A stretch of DNA of 64,000 nt from Candidatus Multivoradales bacterium (GCA_965223155.1 CBDCVR010000015.1:384001-448000); one strand, 5' to 3'; counted from the stretch's first letter, positions 27,085-63,568 are shown. The notes: generated by a model from the letters alone, not told the origin. Translations and numbers: made by a program.

Positions 27085-27148
27085 GCCGTGCCGAACGAGC
27101 GGCCTCGGGACTCACGGCTTCCCGGCCGCAGGCCGGCATGGACTCCGC

Positions 27149-29254: not shown

Positions 29255-29318
29255 GCGGAGTGCTCGGCGGACCGGCGCACGCAGCTCGGAGCCGCTTGCC
29301 GTCGCGGCGGAAGACGGC

Positions 29319-44203: not shown

Positions 44204-44209
44204 GCGGCC

Positions 44210-45439: not shown

Positions 45440-45480
45440 GATTGGCGGCCTCGGGCACCGGGTTCTGAAGAGGCCGGTAG

Positions 45481-45729: not shown

Positions 45730-45873
45730 TCGTTGCGCGCTCCAAGTCTCAGAGTATCACGCTGTCCGAGGCGGCGCGGACGGCCCGACGGGCGCAGCAG
45801 CGTGCTACGATCCGGCGTCGCCGGCGCTCGCAACGCCGCCGGCAGGCGCCGATCCACCCCCCCACGAAAGATC

Positions 45874-49711: not shown

Positions 49712-49803
49712 CTTCGGCTCGATTGTGGTTTCGGCAGCGGACCGCGGCCGGCTCTGAGCAAGCAGAGACCGTTCGAGTCTTGCAGTAAACTCTGCCGGTC
49801 GCA

Positions 49804-51987
49804 ATGAGTGGAACGAAGCGTCTCGCCTTTCTCGCCGCCGCTTTGTTCCTGGTGCTTTTTACCGGCACGGTCGGCAAGCCGGGGTTGCCGCCTACGCTCA
49901 AAGCGGACGAGCCCGCCTACTTCCTGATGGCCGAAAGCCTGGTCCACGATGGCGACCTGCGGGCCGAGGATCGCGACTACCGCCGGCTCATGGAGAGCTA
50001 TCCGTATCTGCCCACCTCCAACCTCATCTTGATGAGCGACGACGGCTGGCAGACCGTCTATTTCGGCAAGCCGTTCATCTACCCGCTCCTGGGCGCTCCG
50101 TTCGTGGCCGTCTTCGGCGCCAACGGACTGGTCGTCCTCAACGCCCTGCTCTTTCTGGCCATGATCTGGCTGGGCGCCGGCTACCTCGAGCGGTTCAACC
50201 CGACGGCGCTGGCGCTCGTCTTCTCCGCGGCCTTCTTTTTCTTGAGCCCGACTTTCTCGTACGTCTTCTGGCTGCAACCCGAGATCTTGAACGCCGCCTC
50301 GGTCGCGGTGGCCTACGCGATTCTCTTGGGCCGGCCGCAGAACTCCCCGCCCTCGTTCTGGCGGATCCTGGCTTCGGCCGCCGTGCTGGCGGTGGGCGCC
50401 TACAACAAACCGGTTCTCCTGGCCTTCGGCCTGCCGCTCGCGGCGCTGCTCTTCCGGCGCGAGGGACTCCGCGGGGCCTGGAACTGGTGCGCGGCCGCCG
50501 CCGTCACCCTGGGTTTGCTGGCCGGGGGCTCATTCCTCTTGACCGGGCACCCCAGCTCGTACCTGGGGGTATCGCGCGGCGGCGTCAACGTCACCAGCCC
50601 CGAGCAGGTCGCCCATGACCTGTCCGAGCTCTCGGCCAAGCTCGAAGCCGGGTCGACCACGGCCAACTCCTGGTCGTGGGTCTTTCGCAAGCCCCCGACC
50701 ACGCTGCGCGAGATCGGTCAGAGCACCAAGTACTTCTTCATCGGCCGCCATACCGGTCTCGTCGTCTATTTCCCGTTCGCGGTGATCAGCTTCACGCTCT
50801 TTCTCCTCCACTGGCGAAGGCGGCCCGAGGGCTGGCTGACGCTCTTGGCCATCGGAGTCATCGCGGCGTTTTTCATCTGCGTCATCCCGCTCAACTGGCA
50901 CGGCGGAGGCGGCTTCATCGGCAACCGCTACTTCCTGATGGTCTACCCGGCGTTCCTCTTCCTGGTCTCGACCATCCGGCCCGCCTGGCTGATCGCCCCG
51001 GGCGCCGCCTGGGCCGGTCTCTTCCTGGGAGTCATCCTGTTTACCCCCTTTGGAGCGCCGGTGCCCGAGCCGACTCTTCAGGCCCACACCCGCTCCCGCC
51101 CCTTCCAGTTCTTCCCGCTCGAGATCACGTTGCGCAAGCGAGTCCCCGGCTACAGCGTCTTCGGCTACTCGCACCTGGCGCTCATCGGGCGCAAGGACCT
51201 CTTCCTGCCGGACCGGAAGATCGGGGGCGCGCCCCTGATCCATACCGGACAACGAATCGAAGTCGTGGTCATGACGGATCGCCCGATCACGGGGCTGTTC
51301 TTCGAGGTCATGAGCTTCACGCCCGACAACGAGGTCCGCCTGGAGCTGGCCGGAGACTCGGAGACGGTCGTGTTCGAAGGCGCCGGCCGGCGGCGCCAGC
51401 GCCGGCAGGTCGTAGAGCTCAATCCCGTCGACCCGCCACGCGAGCATCTCGAGCTCGAGAACCTCTTCTACATCTACGACATGGAAGTCGAGGCCGCCAA
51501 TGGGCGCAGAATCCACGTGCCCAAGGACTCGGCCAAGACCTACTACGCCGGCGCCCGGCTCGAGTTCCTGGGCCGGCGCGATCAGCTCGGCCGGAGCGAG
51601 CACTACCGCGCCGAATGGCTGGGCGAGGAGCTACCGCAGAGGATCGAAGCCGGCGAGCCGTTTGCGATGACCGTGCGCCTGCGCAACGACAGCAAGAGCG
51701 CCTTCGACTCGAGCGGGCCCTTGCCGGTTACGCTCCGCTACCGCTGGCGCCGTCCCGACGGCGAAGCCCTGGGCGTCGAGCACCGGCAGCGCTTCCCGGA
51801 GCCGGTCGAGCCCGGAACCGCCACCGCTCTCGAAGTCCAGGTCGCTCCGCCCCCAGGGGCCGGCGTCTACCGGCTGGAGCTGGATCTGGCGCGCGAGCAC
51901 GTCGGGCACTTCTCGGAGGTCGCGTCCGAGAAGCGCGTGCTCGAGATCCGGGTCTCGGCGCCTACTGCAGATAGCCCAGCGCCTTGA
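49804..51987 (+). CDS. GT-C-like polytopic membrane protein with C-terminal Ig-like domain
   Basis: KADEPAYFLMAESLVHDGDL, WLQPE, WHGGGGFIGNRY; C-terminal VRLRN...LRYRW...PGAGVYRLELDL. Confidence 0.75.
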   Translation: MSGTKRLAFLAAALFLVLFTGTVGKPGLPPTLKADEPAYFLMAESLVHDGDLRAEDRDYRRLMESYPYLPTSNLILMSDDGWQTVYFGKPFIYPLLGAPFVAVFGANGLVVLNALLFLAMIWLGAGYLERFNPTALALVFSAAFFFLSPTFSYVFWLQPEILNAASVAVAYAILLGRPQNSPPSFWRILASAAVLAVGAYNKPVLLAFGLPLAALLFRREGLRGAWNWCAAAAVTLGLLAGGSFLLTGHPSSYLGVSRGGVNVTSPEQVAHDLSELSAKLEAGSTTANSWSWVFRKPPTTLREIGQSTKYFFIGRHTGLVVYFPFAVISFTLFLLHWRRRPEGWLTLLAIGVIAAFFICVIPLNWHGGGGFIGNRYFLMVYPAFLFLVSTIRPAWLIAPGAAWAGLFLGVILFTPFGAPVPEPTLQAHTRSRPFQFFPLEITLRKRVPGYSVFGYSHLALIGRKDLFLPDRKIGGAPLIHTGQRIEVVVMTDRPITGLFFEVMSFTPDNEVRLELAGDSETVVFEGAGRRRQRRQVVELNPVDPPREHLELENLFYIYDMEVEAANGRRIHVPKDSAKTYYAGARLEFLGRRDQLGRSEHYRAEWLGEELPQRIEAGEPFAMTVRLRNDSKSAFDSSGPLPVTLRYRWRRPDGEALGVEHRQRFPEPVEPGTATALEVQVAPPPGAGVYRLELDLAREHVGHFSEVASEKRVLEIRVSAPTADSPAP

Positions 51988-53533
51988 GCTGCTCGCGCGT
52001 CGACTGATCCATCTCGCCGACCTCGCCCTCCACGCCGGCGATCGCGTCGAAGGGCTGATCGTACCAGCGGCCGAGCACCTGCCGCAGACTCGCCGCGACC
52101 TCGGGACGCTCGTCGAAGAGATTCCGGGTCTCGGCGGGATCCTCGACGAGGTCGAAGAGGGCAAATTGCTTGCCCACCTCACCGGCGACGATCCTCTGAG
52201 CGTGCCCCTCGGCGGCGTCAATCAGCTTGTAGCGACGATCGCGAACGACACGCTGCCACAGGTGCTGGCGCCCGTAGCCGGCTTCCGAGAAAGCGTACGC
52301 CGGGCGGGTGGGGTCCAGACGCCGGCCCACGAGGCGTCCGGCGAGCGACCGACCCTGCATCCAGCGGCCGCCGTCCAGCTCGACCCCGGCGAACTCGAGT
52401 AGCGTCGGCGCCAAGTCGATGAGCTGGACCGGATCCGGATCCACGCCGGCGGCGATACGGCCCGGGAAATGAACGATGAAGGGAACCCGCAGGCAGGTTT
52501 GAAAAGCGAACCGGCCGTGGTCGAAGTAGTACCCGTGCTCGCCCAGCGACTCGCCGTGATCCGAGGTCACCACGGTCACGACGTTCTCCAGCAGTCCCCG
52601 TCCACGCATGGTGTCGAGGAGCTTGCCGATCTCGGCGTCGGCATAGGCGATCTCGGCGTCGTAGCGAGCCAGATAGAAGGCCAAGTCATCCCGTCCGTCT
52701 TCGGCTTGCTCGGTGCCGATACCGCCCATCTCCCGCCGCTCCCGCGTGGCATCGACCAAGACCTTCTGGGACGGGTCGAAGTGCTCGTCGTCCTGGAACC
52801 GGTCCCGGTAGGCTGGCGGCGGCCGGTAGGGCGCGTGCGGATCCAGGTAATGGACCCAGAAGAAGTAGGGTCGCCGGCGGCCGTTCTCGCCGGATCCGTC
52901 TCCGACGATCCGGTCCAGGAGTCCGGTGGCCCAGGCGGTCACCGCGGCGGCGCCGTTGGCATCGCCTCCGGGTTCGGGTGGGTCCCGCTTCCAGGTCTCG
53001 ACGTAGCTCTCAAAGCCCTGATCGAACTGAAAGTCGGCGCCCAGGGCGCCGTTCGAGACCACAGCGTGGGTCTGGTACCCGCGGGCCGCCATCTCCTCGG
53101 CGAGCAGGTGAAAGTCGTTCGGGACCTGGATGCCGACCTTGCGCACGATGCCGTTGTTCTTGGGATAGGTCGCGGTCAGCATCGAAGCGAACGAGGGACC
53201 GGTCTTGGGCCACTGCACCGCGGCCTGGTCGAATCGAACGCCCTCGGCGGCCAAGCGGTCGAGCACCGGAGAGGTGGCCCGCGGGTAGCCATAGCTCGAC
53301 AGATGATCGGCGCGCAGGGTGTCGATGGTCAGAAACAGAATGTCCGGCCGCGACGGTTCGTCTTCCGAGGTGCAGGCCCCGGCCGCCGCCAGCAGGGCCA
53401 CGACCGCGATCGAGCCGGCGGCGGTGGCCGTCCACCGGCCAAGGTGGGAGGGTCCGCCTCCCGGCCGGGAGTTCGACACCTCGGCATGCCGGTCGGAAGC
53501 CGAAGAGCGTGCTTTTCGGATGGGTCGTCTCAT
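51962..53533 (-). CDS. Sulfatase/alkaline-phosphatase-superfamily lipoprotein
   Basis: Lipobox AGA-C, DILFLTIDTLRADHL, WPKTGPSFAS, HYLDPHAPY, YDAEI, TSDHGE, LFDLVEDPAE, LKALGY. Start is ATG 53533 or GTG 53554. Confidence 0.9.
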   Translation of the reverse strand: MRRPIRKARSSASDRHAEVSNSRPGGGPSHLGRWTATAAGSIAVVALLAAAGACTSEDEPSRPDILFLTIDTLRADHLSSYGYPRATSPVLDRLAAEGVRFDQAAVQWPKTGPSFASMLTATYPKNNGIVRKVGIQVPNDFHLLAEEMAARGYQTHAVVSNGALGADFQFDQGFESYVETWKRDPPEPGGDANGAAAVTAWATGLLDRIVGDGSGENGRRRPYFFWVHYLDPHAPYRPPPAYRDRFQDDEHFDPSQKVLVDATRERREMGGIGTEQAEDGRDDLAFYLARYDAEIAYADAEIGKLLDTMRGRGLLENVVTVVTSDHGESLGEHGYYFDHGRFAFQTCLRVPFIVHFPGRIAAGVDPDPVQLIDLAPTLLEFAGVELDGGRWMQGRSLAGRLVGRRLDPTRPAYAFSEAGYGRQHLWQRVVRDRRYKLIDAAEGHAQRIVAGEVGKQFALFDLVEDPAETRNLFDERPEVAASLRQVLGRWYDQPFDAIAGVEGEVGEMDQSTREQLKALGYLQ

Positions 53534-53734
53534 GCCGCGCGTTCCGCGAGGCACGCATGATATCCGGATTCCCGAGCCCGGCTCGGCGCTTCGCGGATCC
53601 GGGATTCAGGCCCGCGACTCACTCGCGATTGGGCCTGTACAATCGGCGCTACCGGGCGCGAGCCCGGTTCATCACCCGAATCGCACAACTGGCCGGAGGG
53701 CGCCGCCAGCGCCGTCCGACCGCAAAGGAGCGCA

Positions 53735-54544
53735 ATGGCTGCAAATACCAACCCGGCGGAGCTGCCGGTCGTCATTCTGTGCGGCGGCAAGGGCACCCGG
53801 CTGCGCGAGGAAACCGAGGTCAAGCCCAAGCCGATGGTCGAGATCGGCGGCATGCCCATCCTCTGGCACATCATGAAGATCTACGGCCACTACGAGGTCG
53901 AGAGGTTCCTGCTCTGCCTGGGCTACAAGGGCTGGGCCATCAAGCAGTACTTCCTGCGCTACCACGAGATGATGCGGGATTTCACGATCTCGATGGGCGA
54001 TCCCGAGCACCCCGAGTTCCACAACCGGCGCGGGCAAGAGCGCTGGCGCGTGACCTGCGCCGAGACCGGCGAGGAGACCGGCACCGGCGGCCGGCTGTGG
54101 CGGGTACGCGACTACATCGACACCGACACTTTCTTTTTCACCTACGGCGACGCCGTCGGCAACGTGGACATCAACCGGCTGCTCGCCTACCACCACGAGC
54201 AAGGCCGGGTGGCGACGGTCACCGGCATTCACCCGACGTCACGGTACGGCGAGATGGAGGTCCACGACGGAATCGCGGTCGAGTTCAACGAGAAGCCCAC
54301 GGTCTCGGAAGGCCTCGTCAGCGGCGGCTACTTCGTCTTTCAACGTGAGGTGTTCGACTATCTCTCGGAGGATCCCGAGCTGCTGCTGGAGTTCGAGCCG
54401 CTCCAGACGCTGGCGCGCGACGGCCAGCTCGCGGTGTACGCCCACGGTGGCTACTGGGAGCCCATGGACACGTATCGCGACTACCTGCACCTCAACCGCA
54501 CCTGGCGGGACGGGAATCCCGAATGGAAGATCTGGAGCGACTAG
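53735..54544 (+). CDS. rfbF: Glucose-1-phosphate cytidylyltransferase
   Basis: VILCGGKGTRLREET, KPKPMVEIG, LWHIMKIY, TGGRL, TYGD, FNEKP, WEPMDT. Confidence 0.94.
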   Translation: MAANTNPAELPVVILCGGKGTRLREETEVKPKPMVEIGGMPILWHIMKIYGHYEVERFLLCLGYKGWAIKQYFLRYHEMMRDFTISMGDPEHPEFHNRRGQERWRVTCAETGEETGTGGRLWRVRDYIDTDTFFFTYGDAVGNVDINRLLAYHHEQGRVATVTGIHPTSRYGEMEVHDGIAVEFNEKPTVSEGLVSGGYFVFQREVFDYLSEDPELLLEFEPLQTLARDGQLAVYAHGGYWEPMDTYRDYLHLNRTWRDGNPEWKIWSD

Positions 54545-54555: not shown

Positions 54556-55056
54556 CTAGCGCCGGAAGGTGGCGACGAGCACGACCGAATTGCTTCCCGG
54601 GTTCCGATCGTAAAGGCCCGCGTTCGACAGGTGGTAGAAGAGCAGCCCCAACCGCAGTCGCTCGCTGGCCTCGAAGGCAAGCTCGATGCTGCTCCGGAAC
54701 TCGACCAGCCCGCCCAGGTCCTTGCCGTCGCCCCGCTCCCACAAGCCGACGGCGAACCCCGGACGCACGTGCCACCGCCCTCGAAGCCAATCGTAGGCGG
54801 TGCCCGCATAGGCCCAATAGGCGCCGTCGTCGGTACCCGCCAACCCGCCCACCCACTCGAGCGGCCAACCCAGGGGCGGCCGGCTCATCGGCAGGCGCAC
54901 CTCGAAGCCGGCCTCTCCGGCTTCATGATTCCGGTCGAGATCGAACTGGCCGGCGTAGACCGCCCAATCGGCCCCGGCCGCGGGTACCGGAAGCGCAACG
55001 AAGAGGCCGGCGGCGACACCCAGAGCACGAACGGTAGCGGTCCATGACGCGGGCAT
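54556..55056 (-). CDS. pagL: Lipid A 3-O-deacylase / acyloxyacyl hydrolase (PagL family)
   Basis: Signal peptide, GKDLGGLVEFRS, YHLSNAGLYDRNPG (H-x-S-N). Start ATG 55056 is preceded by TATGAT-6 nt. Confidence 0.82.
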   Translation of the reverse strand: MPASWTATVRALGVAAGLFVALPVPAAGADWAVYAGQFDLDRNHEAGEAGFEVRLPMSRPPLGWPLEWVGGLAGTDDGAYWAYAGTAYDWLRGRWHVRPGFAVGLWERGDGKDLGGLVEFRSSIELAFEASERLRLGLLFYHLSNAGLYDRNPGSNSVVLVATFRR

Positions 55057-58000
55057 CGGCGGATCATACTCCAGCCCAAAGCAGCGCCCCGGAGCCGCGG
55101 CCGCCGCTCTATCTGGTCGCCACCTCCCACCTCGACACCCAGTGGCGCTGGTCGATCCGCACCACCATCCGGCACTTTCTGAAGAAGACTCTGCTCGACA
55201 ACCTCGAGCGCATGCGCACGCATCCGGGCTACGTGCTGAGCTTCGAAGGCGCCTTCCGCTACCAGCTGGCCCAGGAGTACTACCCCGATCTCTTTCTTCG
55301 TGTGCGGCAGGCGGCCGCATCCGGGCGCTGGCGCGTCGCCGGCAGCATGCTCGACGCCCCGGACACGATCCTGCCGGCACCCGAAGCGCTCATCCGCCAC
55401 ATCCTCTACGGCAACGGGTACTTCGAGGCCACCTTCGGCCGGCGCAGCGTCGACGTCTTCCTGCCCGACTGTTTCGGCTTCCCGTGGAGCCTGCCGACCC
55501 TTGCCAGGCATTGCGGCCTCCTGGGTTTCTCGTCCCAGAAGTTCATCAAGTGGTTCGCTCCCAAGAAGCTGCCTTTCGACATCGGACGCTGGCGCGGCCC
55601 GGACGGCAGCGACATCGTCGCCGTGCTCCATCCCGGCGGCTACGGCGAGCCCCTCCGCGACCTCGAGGATCCGGCCGGCCCCGACTCGTTCCCCGAGCTC
55701 GACCGCGACCCCGAGCTTCCTACCTATCGCTACTTCGGCGTCGGCGACCGTGGCGGCGCTCCGGACGCCGCCTCGCTTGACCGAATCGAGCGAGCCCGGC
55801 GCGGCAGGCTCCGAACCGGCGCCCGGCCGCTCGTTCACACCGGCTCGGACCAGTTCTTCCGGGATCTGGATCCAGGCGTCCGGGAGCGCCTGCCGGTCCA
55901 CGACGGCGAGCTCCTACTGCCGACCCACGGCACCGGCTGCTGGACGTCGCACGCCATCTTGAAAACCTGGAACCGCCGCTGCGAGGGGCTGGCGCTGGCG
56001 GCAGAGCGCTCGGCCCTCCTCGCCTCCTGGCTGGGCGGCCCGGGCTATCCGGACACGGAGCTCCGTTCGGAGTGGACACGCTTCCTCTGGCACCAGATGC
56101 ACGACGATCTGACCGGCACCAGCGCCCCCGAGGCCTACCGGTTCTCGTGGAACGATCTCCTGGTCGCCCAGAACCGTCTGGGGCGCATCCTCGCGGACTC
56201 GGTCCGAGCCGTGGCCCGCGGCCTCGACACGCGGACCGCCGGCATTCCGGTCGTGGTCTTCAATCCGCTGCCGGTCGAGCGCGACGAGACGCTCGAGCTC
56301 GCGGTCCGAGACCTCGAGGCGGGCGTGGAGTACTCAGCCGTGGATCCAACCGGCGGCACGTGGCCCTGCCAGGTCGAGTCGAGCCCCGAGGGCAAGCCAC
56401 GGCTTGTGGTTCGAGCCCGGCTCGCACCGTTGTCGGTGAGCGTCTTGGAGATTCGGAAGGGCAATCGTCTGGACGGACCAGAGCCGGACCGCGAAGAGCT
56501 CGACGCCGGCAGCGGCCACCTAGAGAACTGGAAGTATCGGATCGAGCTCGACGGCGCCGGCGGCCTCGACGTCTTCGACAAGCAACTGGGTCGCCGGCTT
56601 TTCGAGAGCCCGCTCGATCTCGTCCTCCTTCCCGACCGTTCCCGGCGATGGCCGGCCTGGGAGATCCTGCGTGGAGATCTTGGCGCCCGGGAGCGGCTCC
56701 TGGACGGGCCAGCGACCGCGCGCGTCGTCGCCGCCGGACCGGTTCGGGCGGTTCTCGAGATCGAACGGCCCTCGGGACCGTCTCGCTTTCGCCAGCGGCT
56801 CACTCTCGCCGCAAGCTCGAGCTCCCGGCGCTTCGACCTCGACACCTGGATCGACTGGCGGCACTCCAGCACGCTGCTCAAGGCGCGCTTCGCGCTGGCC
56901 GCCGGCGGCACGAACGGCACCGAACCGGCGGCCACCTACGATCTCGGCGTGGGCGCCATCCAGCGTGGGGTCAACGAGCCAGGCCGTCACGAAGTCCCGG
57001 CCCAGGACTGGGCGGATCTCTCATGCGGCGACGCCGGCGTCTCCATCATCGCTCCGACCCGGTACGGATGGGATCGGCCGGCCGCCAACGTTCTCCGCCT
57101 CAGCCTACTGCGGGCACCGGCGGCGCTGCGCCGCTTCGCCCACCAGGCCACTCAGGACCGGGGCCGGCACCACGTCCCGATCTCGGTCCTCGGCCACGGC
57201 GGCGACTGGCGCCGGGCTGGCACCGTGGCCGAGGCCGAGCGCGTGGCCCAGCCCGCGGTCGCCTTCGTAGCCGAGTCCCATCCTGGCCCGCTCGGGCGCT
57301 CGGTGTCGCTCCTCGAGCTGGAAGGGACCAACGCCGCGCTCATGGCGCTCAAGCAGGCCGAAGACGGCAACGGTTGGACCGCGCGGGTGCGCGAGACCGC
57401 GGGGACCGGCGGCGAGGTCCGGCTCCGGAGCCCGGGCCGGCCGGACCCCGACATCCTGGAGCAACTTTCCGGAGCGGAGACGGCGGTCGCGACCGAGCAA
57501 CCGCCGGCTGCACCAACGACAGAGAGCTCGCGCGGTGCCGAGGACGACGAACCCTCGGCCCAGACCCGAACCGCCGCGCCGATCCGGCTCGGAGCCTTCG
57601 CGCTCGAGACCGTGCGCCTGCGGCCGCCGGCACCCGCCGCCAAGCTCTCCCCGGCGCGTGTGGAGCCGCTGGAGCTGCCCTTCGACCACTGCGTGGCGTC
57701 TTGGCACCAACCTGGGTCCCGCGCCAGCCCATGCGACTTCGACGGCCGCGGCCGCTCCTGGCCGGGCGAGCTCATGCCCGCCGAGATCCGTTGCGGGGAG
57801 ACGCGCTTCGTTCTGGGCCCCTGGGCGCCAGGCGCGCCGGCCGCCCTCGCTTGCCGGGGCCAGAGGCTCGCTCTCCCGGGCGAAGGGTTCCGCACACTGG
57901 CGTTTCTGGCCTGCAGCGTCGATCCCGGCGGCAGCCTCCTCGAGCTGGAGGTCTCGGGAGGCGTCCAACCGTTGCGAGTGCCCTACTACTCAGGCTTCTT

Positions 58001-58358
58001 GGGCCAGTGGAAGCGCTACTCGGGCCGCCTCGGATTCCTGCTGCGCCGGATCCGCCCCGGCTACCTCGAGCGGGCTCCGGTCGCCTGGCTCGCCAGCCAC
58101 CAGCACACAGCGACCGTCCGCGACGAGGTCTACACCTACTGCTATCTGTTTCGCTTCGAGGTGCCCCTCGAAGCGTCGGACAGGGAGATCGTGCTGCCCG
58201 AGGCGCCGGACGTGCGTCTCTTCGCCGCCACCGCCTCCGATATGGCATTCTCGCGCCTCGAAGCCGCCACCGTGGACCCCGCCGACACGCTCCCCGCCGG
58301 CTCGACGCCGGGAGCCGCCCGCGGAGCAAGCCCGGATACCGAACGCGAACCCTCATGA
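55044..58358 (+). CDS. Glycoside hydrolase family 38 alpha-mannosidase
   Basis: SHLDTQWRW (Zn ligands), FLPDCFGF (nucleophile Asp), WRGPDGS, QMHDDLTGT, VFNPL, HEVPAQDWAD. No signal peptide seen. Confidence 0.92.
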   Translation: MTRASADHTPAQSSAPEPRPPLYLVATSHLDTQWRWSIRTTIRHFLKKTLLDNLERMRTHPGYVLSFEGAFRYQLAQEYYPDLFLRVRQAAASGRWRVAGSMLDAPDTILPAPEALIRHILYGNGYFEATFGRRSVDVFLPDCFGFPWSLPTLARHCGLLGFSSQKFIKWFAPKKLPFDIGRWRGPDGSDIVAVLHPGGYGEPLRDLEDPAGPDSFPELDRDPELPTYRYFGVGDRGGAPDAASLDRIERARRGRLRTGARPLVHTGSDQFFRDLDPGVRERLPVHDGELLLPTHGTGCWTSHAILKTWNRRCEGLALAAERSALLASWLGGPGYPDTELRSEWTRFLWHQMHDDLTGTSAPEAYRFSWNDLLVAQNRLGRILADSVRAVARGLDTRTAGIPVVVFNPLPVERDETLELAVRDLEAGVEYSAVDPTGGTWPCQVESSPEGKPRLVVRARLAPLSVSVLEIRKGNRLDGPEPDREELDAGSGHLENWKYRIELDGAGGLDVFDKQLGRRLFESPLDLVLLPDRSRRWPAWEILRGDLGARERLLDGPATARVVAAGPVRAVLEIERPSGPSRFRQRLTLAASSSSRRFDLDTWIDWRHSSTLLKARFALAAGGTNGTEPAATYDLGVGAIQRGVNEPGRHEVPAQDWADLSCGDAGVSIIAPTRYGWDRPAANVLRLSLLRAPAALRRFAHQATQDRGRHHVPISVLGHGGDWRRAGTVAEAERVAQPAVAFVAESHPGPLGRSVSLLELEGTNAALMALKQAEDGNGWTARVRETAGTGGEVRLRSPGRPDPDILEQLSGAETAVATEQPPAAPTTESSRGAEDDEPSAQTRTAAPIRLGAFALETVRLRPPAPAAKLSPARVEPLELPFDHCVASWHQPGSRASPCDFDGRGRSWPGELMPAEIRCGETRFVLGPWAPGAPAALACRGQRLALPGEGFRTLAFLACSVDPGGSLLELEVSGGVQPLRVPYYSGFLGQWKRYSGRLGFLLRRIRPGYLERAPVAWLASHQHTATVRDEVYTYCYLFRFEVPLEASDREIVLPEAPDVRLFAATASDMAFSRLEAATVDPADTLPAGSTPGAARGASPDTEREPS

Positions 58359-59737
58359 CCTCCGAGCTCCTGGCCCTGTTCGAGTCTTTGGCGGGCGAGC
58401 TCCTGGCCGGCGAAGACGAGCGGCCGGTGGTCGCTCCCAGCCCGCCGGAGGCGCTCGAAGGCGACCTGGATCTGGCCCTGTCCGAACGGGGCCGGCCGGT
58501 ACCGGAGATCGTCGAGTCTCTGCGCCGGGTGCTGGCCGTCACCCCGAGGATCGCCAGCCGGCGCTTCTACCGCCTGCTCTTCAGCGGCCGGGACCCGCTC
58601 GCGACCCTGGGAGACTTGCTGAGCACGCTCGCCAACACACCGATGCACACCTATCGCGGCGGCGGGCCGCACGTGCTGATCGAAAACGAGGTGCTCGGCC
58701 GGATGCTCGAGCTTGCCGGCTTTTCCGAAGGCGAGGCGACCTTGACCGCGGGCGGCTCGCTCTCCAACATGCTGGCGGCGCTTCTGGCCCGGAACGAGGT
58801 CGCGCCGATCCGGGACGACGGGCTGGCCGGTGCGCCGCGCTTGACCGCCTACGCCTCGGAAGAGGCCCACTATTCGATCTCGGGATCCGTGGCCCACGTC
58901 GGCATCGGCCGGAACAACCTGCGCCGGATCGCGGCCGACCGGGGTGGCCGCATGGAACCGGCCGCCCTGGCGGAAGCTCTCGACCGGGACCGCGACGCGG
59001 GCGCGCGTCCGGCTCTGGTCGTGGCGACCGCCGGGACCACCCTGCGAGGAGCGTTCGACCCGCTCGAAGAGATCGCCGCCGTCACCCGCGAGCGCGGCGT
59101 CTGGCTGCACATCGACGCCGCCTTCGGAGCGCCCGTACTCTTCAGCAAGAGCCTGCGCCCGTTGATGGCGGGCTGCGAGCTGGCCGATTCGCTGACCTGG
59201 GACGCCCACAAGATGATGTCGGTCCCGCTGACCTGCTCGGCGCTTCTGGTCCGGCGTGCCGGCCGGCTGGCAGCCAGCCTGAGCGAGCCTGCCGAGTATC
59301 TCTTCGGCGGCGAGTGGCCGGAGGCCGACCCGGGGCGGCGCTCGCTCCAATGCGGCCGCCGCAACGACGCACTCAAGCTCTGGGTCGCCTGGCAGGCTCT
59401 CGGCGACCAAGGCTACGGCGAGCGCGTCGACCGCTACCGGCGGCTGGCCCAATACGCGGCCTCGCGGATCGAAGGGTCTTCGGACCTGCGCCTGGCCGAG
59501 CCTCCGGCCTCGACCATCGTCTGCTTCGAGGCGCCGGGCCGCTCGAGCGCCGAGATCGCCGCCCGGCTGGAGCGCGAAGAGCGCGTCGCTCTGGGCACGG
59601 CCCGCTTCGGCGGCAAGCTGTTCTTGCGGATCGTCTGCGTCAACCCGGAGATCGACGAAGGCGACCTGGACCACCTGATCGACGAGGTCCGTGCCGTCGC
59701 GAAGACGCTCCCCGAAGCCGGGGAGTCCGAGGGCTAG
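58355..59737 (+). CDS. Group II PLP-dependent decarboxylase (GAD/CSAD/aspartate decarboxylase-like)
   Basis: RFYRLLFSGRD, GGSLSN, AHYSI, TAGTTLRGAFDP, WLHIDAAFG, TWDAHKMM (PLP Lys), SLQCGRRNDALKLW; ATGA overlap with GH38. Confidence 0.9.
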   Translation: MTSELLALFESLAGELLAGEDERPVVAPSPPEALEGDLDLALSERGRPVPEIVESLRRVLAVTPRIASRRFYRLLFSGRDPLATLGDLLSTLANTPMHTYRGGGPHVLIENEVLGRMLELAGFSEGEATLTAGGSLSNMLAALLARNEVAPIRDDGLAGAPRLTAYASEEAHYSISGSVAHVGIGRNNLRRIAADRGGRMEPAALAEALDRDRDAGARPALVVATAGTTLRGAFDPLEEIAAVTRERGVWLHIDAAFGAPVLFSKSLRPLMAGCELADSLTWDAHKMMSVPLTCSALLVRRAGRLAASLSEPAEYLFGGEWPEADPGRRSLQCGRRNDALKLWVAWQALGDQGYGERVDRYRRLAQYAASRIEGSSDLRLAEPPASTIVCFEAPGRSSAEIAARLEREERVALGTARFGGKLFLRIVCVNPEIDEGDLDHLIDEVRAVAKTLPEAGESEG

Positions 59738-59742
59738 CCGCC

Positions 59743-60693
59743 ATGGCCGACGTCACCTTTCTCGTTCATCTCGGCAAGGAGTACACGGTGCGCGGCTATC
59801 TCAAGAGCTGGGCACCAGGCTCCGGGCACCGGATCGGCATCAGGCACTATCCCGGCCTCGCCCCGACCGCGACCGCGCCGGCCAAGCGGCTGCGCCAATC
59901 CTGGAGCCGGTACCGGTTCGCCGCCGCTCGGCCCGCGGACGCCGAGCTCGCGCGTCAAGACGTCATCGTCTTCTCGGACCTGGATCGCCTGCGCGACGGC
60001 GAGCGCGACCAGGCAGTCGATCTCTACGACGAGCTCGGCGGAAACCCCGCCGGGCCGAAGCTCCTCAACCATCCCCGGCGCTCGCTCGGCCGCTTCGAGC
60101 TCCTGGACGCGCTGTACCGCCAAGGCTCGAATCGCTTCGCCATCTACCGTCTGGAGACCCACCGGACACCGGCCCGCTTTCCGGTCTTCGTTCGCGCCGA
60201 GAGCGGACATGGAGGCATGTCGCCACTGCTCCACTCGCAAGCCGAGCTGGATCGCGTTCTCACGGAGTTGGAAGGTCGCCACGGCACCCTCGAAGGATTC
60301 TTGATGCTCGAGTACTGCGACGTCACCGGCAAGGACGGCGTCGCGCGCAAGTACGGCGCCTTTCGGGTCGGTGACGCCTTGATCGCCCGCCACATCCACT
60401 TCAGCCGCGACTGGGCGATCCGCGTTCCGGACATCAAAACCGAGCACTCAGCCCGGGAGGAGCTCGAGTACGTCCGGACCAATCCCCTCGCCGAGGAGCT
60501 CATGGCCGTTTTCCGCCTGGCCGGAGTCGAGTACGGGCGGGTGGATTTCGGCCTCCTCGACGGGGTCCCGCAGATCTGGGAGATCAACACCAACCCGATG
60601 ATCCTGGTCCCGGACGACGCCCGGGATCCGCTTCGGTTCGAAGCGCACGACTACTTCGCCCGCGACTTCGCGCGCGCGTTCGACACCCTGTGA
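59743..60693 (+). CDS. Putative ATP-grasp fold protein
   Basis: LLNHP, FPVFVRAESGHGG, MLEYC, RKY, YGRVDFGLLDGVPQIWEINTNP (D...E-x-N metal motif). Confidence 0.72.
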   Translation: MADVTFLVHLGKEYTVRGYLKSWAPGSGHRIGIRHYPGLAPTATAPAKRLRQSWSRYRFAAARPADAELARQDVIVFSDLDRLRDGERDQAVDLYDELGGNPAGPKLLNHPRRSLGRFELLDALYRQGSNRFAIYRLETHRTPARFPVFVRAESGHGGMSPLLHSQAELDRVLTELEGRHGTLEGFLMLEYCDVTGKDGVARKYGAFRVGDALIARHIHFSRDWAIRVPDIKTEHSAREELEYVRTNPLAEELMAVFRLAGVEYGRVDFGLLDGVPQIWEINTNPMILVPDDARDPLRFEAHDYFARDFARAFDTL

Positions 60694-61940
60694 CCCGCCC
60701 GAGCGTCCCCGATCCGCCCGCTTCGGCGCCACCGTCGCCGCCGAGCCGGTATTCGCGGCGAACGCTTCTCGCTCTCGCCGGCGCTCTGGGCGGGCTCTGG
60801 GGCCTCGACCTCGTAACGATGGGGGCGCCGCTTTCGGCCCAGCGCCGGCGGCGCAAGCCGGGTCGGCCCAAGCCGGGTCGATCTAGAACGGGTCGGTCCC
60901 AGACGTCCAAGAAGCGCCGGCGCCGGCCAGTTGCGGTGCCTCGCGTCTCGGGCGGCATCAACGTCCAGCCGATCCGCCGCTTCGGGCCCGACCAGGTGCC
61001 GGTCGACATCGACATCATCCCGGAGATCGTGGACCTTCAGCTCCAGGCTCTCTACGAGCTCGGTTTCGAGCAGATCCGGCTCACGTTGTCCTTCAGCGGC
61101 GACCACGGTGTGGACCTCCTGGCCGCCGTTCCCTACGTACGGGCGGCCAGAGCGCTCGGCATCGACGTCCTCGGCATCATCGGCCAGTTCGGCCACACGC
61201 ACGAGCTGGCGCGGACCCTCGCCGATTCGAGAAAGCGGCGAGTAGTGCTCGACGGCTATCTCGAGCTCTTCGCGGCGCCGGTCGAGTCCGCCGCCGCCGA
61301 TGGCAGCTCCGGGGCTCTAGCCTTCCAGATCTTGAACGAGCCGACCGCCTTCCACGGAATTCCGCCGGTCACTTACGTACGGTCCTTTCTGGCACCCTGC
61401 TTCGACCATCTCAAGATTCGGGACCCCGGGATCACTCTCGTCTCGGCCGCGCCCATCGGGCAGCAGGCGGGGGTGCTGCGCTTCCACGAGATGCTGGCCG
61501 CCGGTGTCGAGGCGGCCGCGGACGTCGTCGGCCTCCACGTCTACGACCGGCGCGTCCTGGCCGAGCTCGCCGGGCTGACCGCCAGGCCCGTCTGGATCAC
61601 CGAGTCCGGGGTCTTCGGCACGGACCTCCACCTGCCCTGGGTTCGCGACACCTTCCCGGAGATCCGGGAGCTCCTGCCGACGGCCGAGCGGATCTTCTTC
61701 TTCGAGCTCTTCGACCTCTTTCCTGGCGCCTACCGGATCCTCGACCTCGTCCAGGAGCCCGGTGGCGCCATCGTCGCCCGCATCGAGTCCCAGGCACTCT
61801 ACGACTACTACCGGAGTGAGGTCCAAGCGGCCAGCTCAGACCTCCGAACCCTGCCCTACCGATCCCTCATTCCCGACATCACGGCCTACTTTCCGTCGGA
61901 ACGGGACGCCGAAGTGGCCTCCCGGATGATCCGGGCGTGA
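60690..61940 (+). CDS. Tat-exported clan GH-A glycoside hydrolase (GH5-like)
   Basis: SRRTLL twin-arginine signal, QILNEP (acid/base), GLHVY, PVWITESG (nucleophile); GTGA overlap with the upstream gene. Confidence 0.75.
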   Translation: MTRPSVPDPPASAPPSPPSRYSRRTLLALAGALGGLWGLDLVTMGAPLSAQRRRRKPGRPKPGRSRTGRSQTSKKRRRRPVAVPRVSGGINVQPIRRFGPDQVPVDIDIIPEIVDLQLQALYELGFEQIRLTLSFSGDHGVDLLAAVPYVRAARALGIDVLGIIGQFGHTHELARTLADSRKRRVVLDGYLELFAAPVESAAADGSSGALAFQILNEPTAFHGIPPVTYVRSFLAPCFDHLKIRDPGITLVSAAPIGQQAGVLRFHEMLAAGVEAAADVVGLHVYDRRVLAELAGLTARPVWITESGVFGTDLHLPWVRDTFPEIRELLPTAERIFFFELFDLFPGAYRILDLVQEPGGAIVARIESQALYDYYRSEVQAASSDLRTLPYRSLIPDITAYFPSERDAEVASRMIRA

Positions 61941-63568
61941 GCCGATCCCCAACCGGAGGGAACCGGAACCGAGCCGGCGTTCTGACCCGCTTCGCGGGCC
62001 CGGACCGGGGCTCGACCTGGTACCGGACCGGGTTTCTGGCATGGGTCCTCACACTGGCCGCGGCGCCTGTCGCGGCCGCTGGGCCGGGCCGTTGCCCCAC
62101 TCCCGAGCCAGGCGCCCCAGATGTCGGGCAAGAAGCGCCACGGGCGCCGGAGAAGGACCGTCCGGAGCCGACGTATCCCTGGGTTCCCGGCCGGCCCTGC
62201 CTAGGCAACGACTGCGGCAGCCGTCTGGTGGATCTGGAGTTCGAGCTCGAAGTGCCGACCGAGGAGACCGAAACCCGGCTCCGGGCCCTGGTGCGCGATC
62301 GCCTCTACCTGAGCCTCGATCGGGCTCCGGGCCGGCGTGGCGCCTCTCTCATGACCGCGCGCTGGCACCTGGCCTGGACCGACGCCGACCGAGCCGATTT
62401 CGCCACCGCCTCCTACCGCGCCGGCCGCGTCCGCCTCGCGGCCCGGGCCACCCGGTTCGGCACGACGGGGAATGCCCGACCGAGCTGGGTTTCGCCGGCG
62501 CGGTCCGGCACCAAGGCGGGCTGGGGAACCGGGGCCGAGCTGGCGTGGAGGTTGAGCCCGGATCTGGAGCTTCTCTTCGACGTCTCCGACGACGAGCCCG
62601 ACCCGCTCTCGGATTCCGCCGAAGCGCTCGCCTCCAGGGCGTCGGGTGGGGGCATCGGCTTCGCCTGGCAGCGGGGGGCGAGCTTCGACCTCGAAGGGCG
62701 CTTGAGCCGGCACCGGGTTCGGACTCAAGCCGGATTCGTCTTGGACCGGGAGGACCTCGGCCTCGCGGCCCGGCTTCAGCGCCGGCGCTGGTATCTCGCT
62801 GGAGACGCTGGACTCGAATCGGTGGAAGGCCGGCTCCGGCGGCGGCAGGCCCGGATCGGCGCCGCGCTGGAGCACCGCGTCACCACCTACCTCGTCGCCG
62901 GAGCCGAGCTTCGCGGTTGGCACGACCTCGACCTCGGCACGGTCGAGCGCGCCATGGGGATGCGTCTCGTCCTCCACGCCCGGCCCTTCCGCTTCGCCCG
63001 GGGCGGCGAAGCCGCCGAGGCCACCACCGGGCTGGCGCGCGAGGCCTACAGGCTGGGGTTCAACGAGCGGCGGCGGCACGATCTGGAAGGGCGCCGGCTG
63101 CTGCGCGAACGGCTCTTGCTCGCCGCCCAGGCCTCCGGCTCTGCCGAGCTCAGCCGGCTTTCCCGAGAGCTCTACCGCGCTCAGGTCGCGGAGCGCAACG
63201 TCGAGATCGCCGGTCTGGCCTGGCGCCTCCACGCCGACAGGATCCAGGGCGGCAGGAGCTGGACGGTGGAAGGCTTCGTCGCGGTTCCGTGGATCGGCAG
63301 AACCCGTCCGGACGGGGCGGACCGGCGGCGGTTGCGGCACCCCGAGGCGGTCGACTTTCTGCGTCTCACGGTCGCTCGCACCCGGCGCCACATCTCGGCC
63401 GGCCTCACGACCGAAGGCACCAGCGCTCGACTCGCTCTGGCGCTCCACCGCGAGCTGGCGCTGACGCTGGATTGGGAGGAGCCGGCGCTTGCCGGCGTCG
63501 ATCTCGCCTTCGGCGCCGAGAGCTCAAGGCGGCTCTCGATCGGAGCCGTCTACCGGCAGGGGATCTGA
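61937..63568 (+). CDS. Secreted hypothetical protein, possibly an outer-membrane beta-barrel
   Basis: Signal peptide (LAWVLTLAAAPVAAA), alternating amphipathic strands, C-terminal LSIGAVYRQGI; GTGA overlap with the upstream gene. Confidence 0.6.
   Translation: MSRSPTGGNRNRAGVLTRFAGPDRGSTWYRTGFLAWVLTLAAAPVAAAGPGRCPTPEPGAPDVGQEAPRAPEKDRPEPTYPWVPGRPCLGNDCGSRLVDLEFELEVPTEETETRLRALVRDRLYLSLDRAPGRRGASLMTARWHLAWTDADRADFATASYRAGRVRLAARATRFGTTGNARPSWVSPARSGTKAGWGTGAELAWRLSPDLELLFDVSDDEPDPLSDSAEALASRASGGGIGFAWQRGASFDLEGRLSRHRVRTQAGFVLDREDLGLAARLQRRRWYLAGDAGLESVEGRLRRRQARIGAALEHRVTTYLVAGAELRGWHDLDLGTVERAMGMRLVLHARPFRFARGGEAAEATTGLAREAYRLGFNERRRHDLEGRRLLRERLLLAAQASGSAELSRLSRELYRAQVAERNVEIAGLAWRLHADRIQGGRSWTVEGFVAVPWIGRTRPDGADRRRLRHPEAVDFLRLTVARTRRHISAGLTTEGTSARLALALHRELALTLDWEEPALAGVDLAFGAESSRRLSIGAVYRQGI

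What the first reader, a model, noticed from the sequence alone, without database searches (positions are those of the whole stretch)
58355..60693. CSAD/GAD-like decarboxylase + ATP-grasp pair: possible taurine or beta-alanine amidation module
Seen: the motifs RFYRLLFSGRD and SLQCGRRNDALKLW resemble animal GAD/CSAD/GADL1 (RFFNQLFSG, QCGR..D..KLW), and the next gene has an ATP-grasp D...EINTNP end. Established: these decarboxylases make GABA, (hypo)taurine or beta-alanine; ATP-grasp enzymes ligate amines to carboxylates; amino-acid and taurine amides of uronic acids occur in bacterial polysaccharides. Inference: an amine is made and ligated onto a sugar acid or peptide. The CysE-like gene at 48201-48788 could supply cysteine (speculative).
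Basis: partly seen in the sequence, partly recalled or inferred. Interest (0 to 1): 0.7.

Follow-up and report, generated by a model that had tools for sequence, protein, structure and literature searches.

The report
Decarboxylase plus ATP-grasp amide-forming gene pair
Two tightly linked genes in a soil-type acidobacterium, a relative of the animal taurine/beta-alanine-forming decarboxylases and a previously unclassified ATP-driven ligase, most likely make a small amine and fasten it as an amide onto an acidic molecule, probably a surface sugar polymer.

Summary
58355-59737 encodes a group II PLP decarboxylase whose best solved relatives are CSAD, GADL1 and GAD65/67. 59743-60693 encodes a 316-aa protein with no Pfam, NCBIfam or PDB sequence match, but a confident ATP-grasp fold (RimK, ArgX/LysX, glutathione synthetase).

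The two genes look functionally coupled:
- They are adjacent in three genomes with unrelated surroundings.
- Four further genomes with the same ATP-grasp clade hold a close decarboxylase elsewhere.
- One metagenome contig encodes a decarboxylase-TPR-ATP-grasp fusion.

The decarboxylase keeps all catalytic residues but departs from the CSAD selectivity motif (F/P/H instead of F/S/Y). In one lineage its F/P/H orthologue follows tauABC, which favours taurine. This genome, however, has no CDO, no ComA and no close TauC.

The acceptor is unresolved. Pointing to a glycan: the pair lies in a four-gene cassette, with a PslG-like hydrolase, inserted in a polysaccharide locus, and two family members are fused to GT2 domains. 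Pointing to a small soluble amide: the stand-alone pairs, and GNAT neighbours elsewhere in the family.

The CysE link is unsupported. This is a new variant of a known kind (Campylobacter Cj1436/Cj1438-type amidation). This scan has noted the same theme on other DNA, with other enzyme families.

The parts
58355..59737 (+). Group II PLP-dependent decarboxylase, CSAD/GADL1/GAD-like, 460 aa. The selectivity positions are F76/P96/H98. H172, D254, K286, Y315 and R425 are conserved.
   Evidence: Its start overlaps the stop of the upstream gene (ATGA).
59743..60693 (+). ATP-grasp ligase of an unannotated family, 316 aa. Family-invariant residues include E190, K203, R266, D268, E280, N282 and P285.
60690..61940 (+). 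Secreted clan GH-A (beta/alpha)8 glycoside hydrolase, PslG-like. It has a twin-arginine-like signal, then a basic low-complexity linker. The true start may lie downstream of 60690.
   Evidence: Sequence. Only 64 homologues among 1.84 billion representatives. Invariant NE...H.Y...TE. AF2 pLDDT 93.6. Foldseek hits GH1, PslG 5bx9/4zn2/9g17, GH30, GH39.
61937..63568 (+). Protein of unknown family, 543 aa, with an N-terminal hydrophobic signal-like stretch. Possibly an outer-membrane beta-barrel (weak lead only).
   Evidence: No Pfam, NCBIfam or PDB hit. Atlas features 0.92-0.93 to BBP2_2/porin clusters, but recognition was below the threshold.
55044..58358 (+). GH38-like protein, 1104 aa. It is part of the conserved locus and lies directly upstream of the cassette.
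   Evidence: Pfam GH38N/mid/C. Homologues in G119 and G131.
53735..54544 (+). Glucose-1-phosphate cytidylyltransferase.
   Evidence: Pfam. TIGR02623 scores 314.5 bits against a cut-off of 300.25.
51962..53554 (-). Sulfatase-family protein.
49804..51987 (+). LA_3751/LA_3752-like putative glycosyltransferase (below cut-off).
48806..49804 (-). Family 2 glycosyltransferase.
48201..48788 (-). It is not part of the cassette.
   Evidence: Conserved in G131.
46749..48233 (+). Sugar C-methyltransferase (Methyltransf_13/14).
45610..46965 (+). CDP-glucose 4,6-dehydratase. The domain starts near residue 93 of this ORF.
   Evidence: TIGR02622 scores 454 bits against a cut-off of 278.
44210..45439 (-). Wzy_C (O-antigen ligase/polymerase-like) membrane protein. 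It is 40-44% identical to the Wzy_C genes that abut ATP-grasp orthologues in L003, L004 and L009, but it is conserved throughout the order.

Best explanation
This is a two-step 'make an amine, then fix it as an amide' module.

Step 1 (inferred from family and residues). The PLP decarboxylase removes the alpha-carboxyl of a small acidic L-amino acid. F76 occupies the place of CSAD Phe94, which excludes glutamate-sized substrates. The product would be a 2-substituted ethylamine. My order of preference is taurine from L-cysteate, then hypotaurine from cysteine sulfinate, then beta-alanine from aspartate.

Step 2 (inferred from fold and conserved Mg/ATP residues). The ATP-grasp enzyme phosphorylates a carboxylate to an acyl phosphate, and the amine attacks it to give an amide.

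Target in this genome. It is most likely an acidic sugar of the exopolysaccharide or O-polysaccharide built by the surrounding locus. The pair arrived as part of a four-gene cassette together with a secreted PslG-like hydrolase and an envelope protein.

Shown: the gene identities, the fold, the conservation of the pair, and the cassette indel. Inferred: the coupling, the amine and the acceptor.
For: Coupling
- The genes are 5 nt apart in a run of overlapping genes.
- The decarboxylase lies directly upstream of the ATP-grasp in 2 of 80 genome loci (L005, L008). The neighbours there are unrelated housekeeping genes: methylmalonyl-CoA mutase/MeaB, T2SS ATPases, PEPCK, GGDEF-EAL.
- In the ATP-grasp tree, the window, L005, L008, L002 and L003/4/6/9 form one clade (SH-aLRT 99).
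- The four genomes of L003/4/6/9 hold a decarboxylase 49-53% identical elsewhere, with F/P/Y (1) or F/P/H (3).
- Among 401 sampled phylum genomes, a close decarboxylase (E<=1e-90) occurs in 10 including this one. None of the other 9 has the ATP-grasp, and none has Pro at position 2.
- The contig L173 encodes a 980-aa decarboxylase-TPR-ATP-grasp fusion. Its C-terminal domain matches the family profile (hhalign 97.2%, E 3e-11).

Amine
- The best solved relatives are CSAD and GADL1.
- F76, H172, D254, K286, Y315 and R425 match the residues named for mouse CSAD.
- In G405, G406 and G407 the F/P/H orthologue follows tauA-tauB-tauC. TauA matches PDB 6ssy at 1.8e-64. TauC scores 312-316 bits against a cut-off of 342, while the next family scores 160.

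Acceptor
- The locus encodes Wzy_C, CDP-glucose dehydratase, a C-methyltransferase, GT2 and a cytidylyltransferase.
- The cassette 58355-63568 is absent in same-family genome G119, where the GH38 homologue abuts the convergent gene.
- The third cassette gene is a PslG-like hydrolase.
- 2 of the 4 longer family members are ATP-grasp+GT2 fusions. This mirrors Cj1438, which is GT2 plus an ATP-grasp amidoligase (PMC11800379, passages read).
- Glycan genes are immediate neighbours in at least 11 of 80 loci.
- Taurine amide-linked to GalNAcA is known in S. aureus CP1 (PMC12043029, passages read).
Against: - The CSAD motif F/S/Y is met at only 1 of 3 positions, so the substrate cannot be read from known rules.
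- This genome (98.66% complete) has no CDO, no ComA and no close TauC (best 30% identity). No known route to cysteine sulfinate or cysteate was therefore found.
- The tauABC link rests on three near-identical genomes (tau genes 79-93% identical). That is one observation.
- His at motif position 3 also occurs in 4 phylum genomes without the ATP-grasp.
- One clade genome, G403 (L002), has no close decarboxylase (best 27% identity). It is a fragmented MAG.
- The Multivoradales pairs have no glycan genes nearby.
- The Wzy_C orthologue is present in 17 of 17 other same-order genomes, all without the ATP-grasp. Its co-occurrence is therefore uninformative and only its adjacency counts.
- The nearest solved folds (RimK, LysX/ArgX, GshB) act on amino acids or peptide termini, not sugars.
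- No uronic-acid-forming dehydrogenase was identified among the locus genes I scanned.
Confidence: 0.45

Rival explanations
1. The pair makes a small soluble amide rather than a polymer decoration. Examples would be a taurine- or beta-alanine-containing dipeptide-like compound, analogous to carnosine (GADL1 plus the ATP-grasp CARNS1) or to gamma-glutamyltyramine (MfnA plus MfnD). Such a compound could serve as an osmolyte, buffer or antioxidant.
For: - In L005 and L008 the pair stands alone among housekeeping genes.
- The nearest solved folds are amino-acid/peptide ligases: RimK, ArgX/LysX, GshB.
- Elsewhere in the family, GNAT acetyltransferases lie directly downstream in 8 of 80 loci and are fused in P0246. 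BKACE is a neighbour in 3 loci.
- tauABC next to the orthologous decarboxylase fits an uptake-or-synthesis arrangement typical of compatible solutes. That last point is an inference.
- GADL1's role in beta-alanine and carnosine production: PMC7367687, title and abstract seen in a search listing only.
Against: - In this genome the pair sits in a cassette with a secreted PslG-like hydrolase inside a polysaccharide locus.
- GT2 fusions exist in the family.
- The GNAT- and BKACE-linked members lie in other clades of the tree.
Confidence: 0.3
2. The two genes are neighbours without a shared pathway. The decarboxylase would supply taurine, hypotaurine or beta-alanine for general metabolism or stress protection. 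The ATP-grasp would do something unrelated, for example peptide modification.
For: - Only 2 of 80 ATP-grasp genome loci and 1 of 80 decarboxylase metagenome loci show the pairing.
- Close decarboxylases occur in 9 phylum genomes without the ATP-grasp.
- 17 of 80 family loci carry an aKG-HExxH-type peptide beta-hydroxylase, and 14 carry an NRPS-like A-PCP-TE.
Against: - The pair is adjacent in three otherwise different contexts.
- The ATP-grasp clade co-occurs with the P-type decarboxylase subclade in 5 of 5 such genomes.
- An independent fusion exists.
- The spacer is 5 nt within one operon.
Confidence: 0.12
3. The order is reversed. The ATP-grasp first joins an acidic amino acid through its side-chain or alpha-carboxyl group to an acceptor. 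The decarboxylase then acts on the conjugate, as in ligate-then-decarboxylate pathways.
For: - The altered pocket (P96, H98, R101 in place of S, Y and E/K) could admit a larger substrate. This is inference only.
- Butirosin BtrJ/BtrK is a precedent. That is recalled, not checked here.
Against: - Group II decarboxylases need a free alpha-amino acid.
- F76, R425 and the other CSAD-type residues are kept.
- The tauABC link points to a free small sulfonate.
Confidence: 0.06

Closest known systems
Campylobacter jejuni HS:2 capsule glucuronamide pathway. The Cj1438 C-terminal TupA-like ATP-grasp amidoligase works with the Cj1435 phosphatase and Cj1437, named in the passages read of PMC11800379. The Cj1436 decarboxylase is recalled; it has 0 occurrences in that paper.
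   Same: A PLP enzyme makes a small amine. An ATP-grasp enzyme then amidates the C6 carboxylate of a uronic acid in a growing polysaccharide. The ligase is fused to a GT2 domain, as in P0247 and P0248 of the present family.
   Different: - The ligase here has no match to any Pfam ATP-grasp model, including the TupA-like one, at E<=0.01.
- The decarboxylase here is a group II CSAD-like enzyme, not a CobD/HisC-like phosphoserine decarboxylase.
- No phosphatase is present.
- The amine would be taurine or beta-alanine-like, not ethanolamine or serinol phosphate.
Animal CSAD and GADL1 (PDB 2jis, 6zek, 6enz). With carnosine synthase CARNS1 they form a decarboxylase + ATP-grasp route; the CARNS1 fold class is recalled.
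   Same: These are the best sequence matches (E about 1e-76). The residues matching Phe94, His191, Lys305, Tyr335 and Arg466 are conserved. The logic of a decarboxylase feeding an ATP-grasp ligase is also shared.
   Different: - The selectivity motif is F/P/H, not F/S/Y (CSAD) or Y/S/Y (GADL1).
- The residue after T-Y is Arg, not Glu.
- No cysteine dioxygenase was found in the genome.
- The ligase is not a CARNS1 relative by sequence.
Bacterial F/S/Y-type CSAD-like decarboxylases. The motif F-aa19-S-aa-Y is quoted in PMC4754659 (passages read). The original Agnello 2013 paper is not held.
   Same: They belong to the same family at 41-53% identity. 107 of the 120 closest database homologues carry F/S/Y.
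   Different: This protein belongs to a minority with Pro at position 2 (10 of 58 rows in the tree set). Where genomes are known, that subclade co-occurs with the ATP-grasp clade.
RimK, LysX/ArgX and glutathione synthetase (PDB 4iwx, 3vpb, 5k2m, 1gsa).
   Same: These are the nearest solved folds, at Z 14.7-16.2 over the whole 316 residues. The chemistry matches too: a carboxylate is converted to an acyl phosphate, then to an amide.
   Different: Sequence identity is 10-14%. No sequence-level match was found, even with a family profile. Those enzymes act on amino acids or protein C-termini.
MfnA/MfnD of methanofuran biosynthesis: a group II tyrosine decarboxylase plus an ATP-grasp tyramine-glutamate ligase (recalled).
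   Same: A group II PLP decarboxylase product is the amine substrate of an ATP-grasp ligase.
   Different: The MfnA model scores 78.8 bits against a cut-off of 299. The substrate class differs (aromatic versus small acidic). I made no test against MfnD.
Taurine-amidated GalNAcA in Staphylococcus aureus type 1 capsule (PMC12043029, passages read).
   Same: It shows that taurine amide-linked to a uronic acid exists in a bacterial surface polysaccharide. That is the product class proposed here.
   Different: It is a structure, not an enzyme system. The passages I read name no enzyme for the taurine addition. The organism and locus are unrelated.

Membership tests
Group II PLP-dependent amino-acid decarboxylase (Pfam PF00282) | Domain match above the curated cut-off | tested here: met
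   220 bits against a cut-off of 27, covering profile positions 1-373 of 375.
Group II PLP-dependent amino-acid decarboxylase (Pfam PF00282) | Schiff-base lysine in the x-H-K motif, PLP-stacking His, pyridine-N Asp, catalytic-loop Tyr and alpha-carboxylate Arg | tested here: met
   K286, H172, D254, Y315 and R425 are invariant in a 26-sequence alignment. They align with the CSAD residues that bioRxiv 10.1101/2020.09.25.308866 names as Lys305, His191, Tyr335 and Arg466. The Asp role is recalled.
Cysteine sulfinic acid decarboxylase in the strict sense | Three-residue selectivity motif F-aa19-S-aa-Y | tested here: not met
   The motif here is F76/P96/H98, so only the first position agrees. Motif as quoted in PMC4754659.
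Cysteine sulfinic acid decarboxylase in the strict sense | A source of cysteine sulfinate (cysteine dioxygenase) in the same genome | tested here: not met
   PF05995 was not found in the 98.66%-complete genome. The control genome gave a hit.
Glutamate decarboxylase (GAD65/67 type) | Small residue (Ser) at the position of CSAD Phe94, which admits glutamate | tested here: not met
   Phe76 aligns with CSAD Phe and with GAD65 Ser. The role of this position is described.
ATP-grasp superfamily | Three-domain ATP-grasp fold | tested here: met
   AF2 pLDDT 93.6. Foldseek E 1e-10 to RimK, Ddl and LysX. VIA-align Z 16.2-14.7 over residues 1-316.
ATP-grasp superfamily | Conserved ATP/Mg2+ residues: Lys on the central sheet, and R-x-D ... 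E-x-N near the C-terminus | tested here: inconclusive
   K203, R266, D268, E280 and N282 are invariant in 49 family members. Equating them with the Ddl/RimK ligands rests on a recalled motif, not on a residue-level superposition.
TupA-like ATP-grasp amidoligase (the Cj1438 C-terminal domain type) | Sequence match to the TupA-like ATP-grasp model | tested here: not met
   No Pfam family of any kind matched at E<=0.01. I could make no direct comparison with the Cj1438 sequence because it is not held.
TupA-like ATP-grasp amidoligase (the Cj1438 C-terminal domain type) | ATP-dependent amidation of a polymer-bound uronic acid | not testable with these tools
   This needs an enzyme assay. Only context is available.
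RimK / LysX / glutathione synthetase clade | Sequence-level membership | tested here: not met
   No Pfam, NCBIfam or PDB sequence hit. The Atlas lists one RimK-named cluster only at rank 23.
Clan GH-A glycoside hydrolase (for the gene at 60690-61940) | (beta/alpha)8 barrel with the acid/base Glu in N-E-P and the nucleophile Glu in T-E-x-G | tested here: met
   N137/E138, H204/Y206 and T225/E226 are invariant or nearly so in 26 sequences. AF2 pLDDT 93.6. Foldseek hits GH1, PslG, GH30 and GH39. The signature's meaning is recalled.

The most novel reading that the evidence does not exclude
The P-type (F/P/H) decarboxylases would be dedicated taurine-forming enzymes, for example L-cysteate decarboxylases. 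This Pfam-less ATP-grasp family would be the so far unidentified taurine:carboxylate amidoligase that makes taurine-amidated acidic glycans. That would be the first genetic basis for this decoration. More broadly, the family would be a new, widespread class of amidoligases recruited to glycans (GT2 fusions), to peptides (HExxH hydroxylase and NRPS-like neighbours) and to small solutes (GNAT neighbours).
Probability: 0.22. Interest if true: 0.75.

Novelty: new variant of a known kind. Interest (0 to 1): 0.55.

Why it matters
Amide decorations change the charge and the recognition of bacterial surface polymers. Only one amidation system, in Campylobacter, is described in the papers I read.

This pair offers:
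- a different ligase family, with at least 390 sequence clusters and no Pfam model;
- a distinct decarboxylase subclade whose altered selectivity motif could extend the rules that tell CSAD, GADL1 and GAD apart;
- a testable candidate for how taurine, or a related amine, gets into bacterial glycans or small amides.

It also gives a first functional handle on an ATP-grasp family found across many phyla.

Tried and rejected
- **Pantothenate reading** (decarboxylase as a PanD substitute, ATP-grasp as a PanC substitute): rejected. The genome lacks PanB, PanC and PanD altogether. The Multivoradales genomes that carry the pair have a normal PanC.
- **Wzy_C co-occurrence as evidence:** rejected after a control. 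The orthologue is in 19 of 401 phylum genomes, including all 17 other same-order genomes, none of which has the ATP-grasp. In G402 it sits in the same NAD kinase-TlyA-Wzy_C-dehydratase synteny as here.
- **His at motif position 3 as a marker of the ATP-grasp link:** rejected. 4 phylum genomes without the ATP-grasp have it.
Only 1 of 80 loci had an ATP-grasp relative, the L173 fusion.
- **Agnello 2013:** not held.
- **Sequencing runs:** no RNA holder listed. I did not lay reads.
- **Complex prediction:** no job sent, because I do not claim that the two enzymes bind each other.
- **Last cassette gene:** sequence searches gave nothing. The Atlas gave only a weak lead.
- **Earlier-findings look-up by sequence:** nothing found.
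- **Literature:** a search for ATP-grasp + taurine + decarboxylase + gene cluster found 1 paper, which was irrelevant.

Full report
**What is there**

The window is a 68% GC stretch of contig C15 of a 4.0-Mb, 98.66%-complete genome. Third-position GC picks out the real frames. Between 53.7 and 63.6 kb there is one plus-strand run of genes:
- a glucose-1-phosphate cytidylyltransferase (53735-54544);
- a 1104-aa GH38-like protein (55044-58358);
- the decarboxylase (58355-59737);
- the ATP-grasp gene (59743-60693);
- a 416-aa ORF (60690-61940);
- a 543-aa ORF (61937-63568).

After these come convergent minus-strand genes. The junctions are ATGA, a 5-nt spacer, GTGA and GTGA, so this is one operon by arrangement.

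Upstream lie more polysaccharide genes: Wzy_C, CDP-glucose 4,6-dehydratase, a sugar C-methyltransferase, a hexapeptide acyltransferase, GT2, an LA_3751-like protein and a sulfatase.

**The observation**

The decarboxylase is a full-length PF00282 protein (220 bits). Its best solved relatives are human CSAD, mouse GADL1, mouse CSAD, and then GAD65/67 (E 6e-77 to 9e-67).

The second protein has no Pfam, NCBIfam or PDB sequence match, not even with a 49-sequence profile. An AlphaFold2 model built on that alignment is confident (pLDDT 93.6, pTM 0.90). It is an ATP-grasp fold by two independent aligners:
- Foldseek gives RimK, Ddl and LysX at E about 1e-10.
- VIA-align against 48,161 chains gives RimK Z 16.2, ArgX 15.4, LysX/ArgX 15.0 and glutathione synthetase 14.7, each spanning residues 1-316.

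K203, R266, D268, E280 and N282 are invariant across the family. From memory of the Ddl/RimK motifs they correspond to the ATP and Mg ligands, but I did not superpose residues.

**Are the two genes coupled?**

The ATP-grasp family has at least 390 clusters in the protein collection, none with a Pfam domain. It has 263 confirmed places in species-representative genomes, of which I examined the best 80. Only 2 of those 80, both Candidatus Multivoradales (L005, L008), have the decarboxylase next door.

In those two genomes the pair sits among unrelated housekeeping genes. The pair, not its neighbourhood, is therefore what is conserved.

A maximum-likelihood tree of the 81 ATP-grasp proteins places eight of them in one clade (SH-aLRT 99):
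- the window;
- L005 and L008;
- L002;
- the four loci L003, L004, L006 and L009.

The genomes of the last four loci contain a decarboxylase 49-53% identical to ours at another place. The genome of L002 does not (best 27% identity); it is a fragmented MAG. So 7 of 8 clade genomes hold a close decarboxylase.

As a control I sampled 401 genomes of the phylum. The ATP-grasp family is in 2 of them, this genome and one with a distant member. A close decarboxylase (E<=1e-90) is in 10, counting this one, and none of the other 9 has the ATP-grasp. These genomes are kin: G405, G406 and G407 are near-identical. The independent lineages number about five.

A separate line of evidence is the metagenome contig L173. 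It encodes one 980-aa protein made of a PF00282 decarboxylase (a different subtype), TPR repeats, and a C-terminal domain that matches the ATP-grasp family profile (hhalign probability 97.2%, E 3e-11, 212 columns). I rate functional coupling at about 0.8.

**Which amine?**

The alignment with CSAD, GADL1 and GAD65 can be read against two papers:
- The mouse CSAD structure paper (bioRxiv 10.1101/2020.09.25.308866, passages read) shows that the residues matching Phe94, His191, Lys305, Tyr335 and Arg466 are all kept here, as F76, H172, K286, Y315 and R425. In that paper Phe94 blocks glutamate-sized substrates.
- The selectivity motif is quoted as F-aa19-S-aa-Y (PMC4754659, passages read). Here it reads F/P/H, and the Glu after T-Y in the animal enzymes is Arg.

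Of the 120 closest database homologues, 107 carry F/S/Y. Only 5, including this protein, carry F/P/H.

The decarboxylases in the genomes that carry the ATP-grasp clade read as follows:

| Genome(s) | Motif |
|---|---|
| G405-G407 | F/P/H |
| G404 | F/P/Y |
| Multivoradales | Y/Q/H |

The nine phylum genomes without the ATP-grasp read F/S/Y (5), F/S/H (2), F/T/H (1) and F/Q/H (1). In genomes I could inspect, Pro at position 2 therefore appears only together with the ATP-grasp clade (5 of 5). His at position 3 is not exclusive to it.

In the decarboxylase tree the window pairs with P0123 (99), and L005 joins the other eight P-type proteins (92). A single origin of the P-type is not excluded.

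The most telling context is in G405, G406 and G407. There the F/P/H orthologue directly follows tauA-tauB-tauC on the same strand:
- TauA matches PDB TauA at 1.8e-64, and the next-best binding protein scores 1e-11.
- TauC scores 312-316 bits against a cut-off of 342, and the next family scores 160.

An operon joining taurine uptake to this decarboxylase, with no taurine-degrading gene seen beside it, suggests that taurine is the product, obtainable by uptake or by synthesis.

Against this, my genome has no cysteine dioxygenase, no phosphosulfolactate synthase ComA and no close TauC. I therefore found no known route to cysteine sulfinate or cysteate. The three tau-linked genomes also count as one observation. 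My rough odds are taurine or hypotaurine 0.45, beta-alanine 0.3, something else 0.25.

**Which acceptor?**

Evidence for a glycan:
- The four genes 58355-63568 are an indel. In same-family genome G119 the GH38 homologue (L090:1109-4249) is followed within about 40 bp by the homologue of the convergent gene (5093-4287). In same-genus G131 both flanks end at contig breaks, and the genome has no ATP-grasp.
- The third cassette gene has a twin-arginine-like signal and only 64 homologues among 1.84 billion representatives. Its N-E, H-x-Y and T-E residues are invariant. Its confident model (pLDDT 93.6) matches GH1, PslG, GH30 and GH39 barrels. PslG is the hydrolase of the Psl exopolysaccharide operon.
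- Of the 4 longer family members found, 2 are ATP-grasp+GT2 fusions, 1 is ATP-grasp+GNAT and 1 is a tandem duplication. The GT2 fusions echo Cj1438, whose GT2 domain is fused to an ATP-grasp amidoligase that amidates glucuronic acid in the capsule (PMC11800379, passages read).
- Glycan genes are immediate neighbours in at least 11 of 80 loci. These are Wzy_C in L003/4/6/9, and GT1/GT4, GT61, Bac_transf with a C-methyltransferase, DegT, heparinase II/III and PGA_cap elsewhere.
- Taurine amide-linked to a uronic acid is an established structure in the S. aureus type 1 capsule (PMC12043029, passages read).

Evidence for a small molecule or peptide:
- The Multivoradales pairs stand alone.
- GNAT genes lie directly downstream in 8 loci, and BKACE is a neighbour in 3.
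- An aKG-HExxH-type peptide hydroxylase occurs in 17 loci, and an NRPS-like A-PCP-TE in 14.
- The nearest solved folds act on amino acids and peptide termini.

In the tree these other contexts belong to other clades, so the family probably uses different acceptors in different lineages.

A control removed one apparent support. The Wzy_C orthologue is present in all 17 other same-order genomes, none of which has the ATP-grasp. Only its physical adjacency in one subclade carries any weight.

**The CysE idea**

The gene at 48201-48788 is closest to serine O-acetyltransferase models but scores below both cut-offs. It is conserved in G131, which lacks the ATP-grasp. Nothing ties it to the pair.

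**Comparison and novelty**

In logic this works like the Campylobacter Cj1436/Cj1438 amidation system, like animal GADL1 plus carnosine synthase, and like MfnA/MfnD. The last two ligase assignments are recalled.

It is not a member of the TupA-like or RimK families by sequence, and it is not a CSAD by the selectivity motif. I found no paper linking an ATP-grasp enzyme with taurine and a decarboxylase. The search returned 1 irrelevant paper. The search listed 9 papers; the one I read (PMC11800379) describes the Campylobacter system.

This scan has noted the same theme before on other DNA with other enzyme families (e1-4653041, e1-4331312, e1-4391686, e1-3147828). I did not check those notes.

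My verdict is a new variant of a known kind. The coupling is well supported and the chemistry is plausible but unproven. Interest 0.55.

Noticed in passing
L173:4884-7826: A metagenome contig encodes a single 980-aa protein that fuses a PF00282 decarboxylase, TPR repeats and a C-terminal ATP-grasp-like domain. It is flanked by a GT2, an OMP beta-barrel and a TolC-like protein.
   Followed up: partly
L190:814-1839 with L180:3-2931; also L181, L182, L191: Three closely related acidobacterial genomes carry a tauA-tauB-tauC operon followed directly by an F/P/H-type CSAD-like decarboxylase. I saw no taurine-degrading gene beside it.
   Followed up: partly
17 of the loci L002-L081, e.g. L071:3727-5226 and L052:11069-12568: A roughly 499-aa protein with the aKG-HExxH-type peptide beta-hydroxylase domain (TIGR04267) lies within 6 kb of the ATP-grasp homologue in 17 of 80 loci. 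A cyanobacterial subclade instead has an NRPS-like A-PCP-TE protein (14 loci) plus Asp/Glu racemase.
   Followed up: partly
whole genome G000: No PanB, PanC or PanD was found in this 98.66%-complete genome. The same-genus genome G131 also lacks PanC and PanD, while same-family genomes have PanC. The genus may need external pantothenate.
   Followed up: partly
window 55044-58358: A 1104-aa GH38-like (alpha-mannosidase family) protein is encoded inside a polysaccharide biosynthesis operon. It is conserved at this place in relatives G119 and G131. Its last ~300 residues have no family match.
   Followed up: no
window 42591-46965 and L187: The order NAD kinase, TlyA-like methyltransferase, Wzy_C protein, sugar 4,6-dehydratase is shared between this genome and a Multivoradales genome. 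The Wzy_C protein's best NCBIfam model is IctB (far below cut-off). It is present throughout the order.
   Followed up: partly
window 60690-60930: The PslG-like hydrolase ORF begins with a twin-arginine-like signal. An unusually basic Arg/Lys/Pro-rich linker of about 40 residues follows, before the barrel.
   Followed up: no
P0245 (protein collection): A 618-aa relative consists of two tandem copies of the ATP-grasp domain.
   Followed up: no
window 22482-31302: A second polysaccharide region holds an ABC-2 transporter, RmlA-D-type genes and a Bac_transf initiating transferase. BamA/TamB genes separate it from the locus studied here.
   Followed up: no
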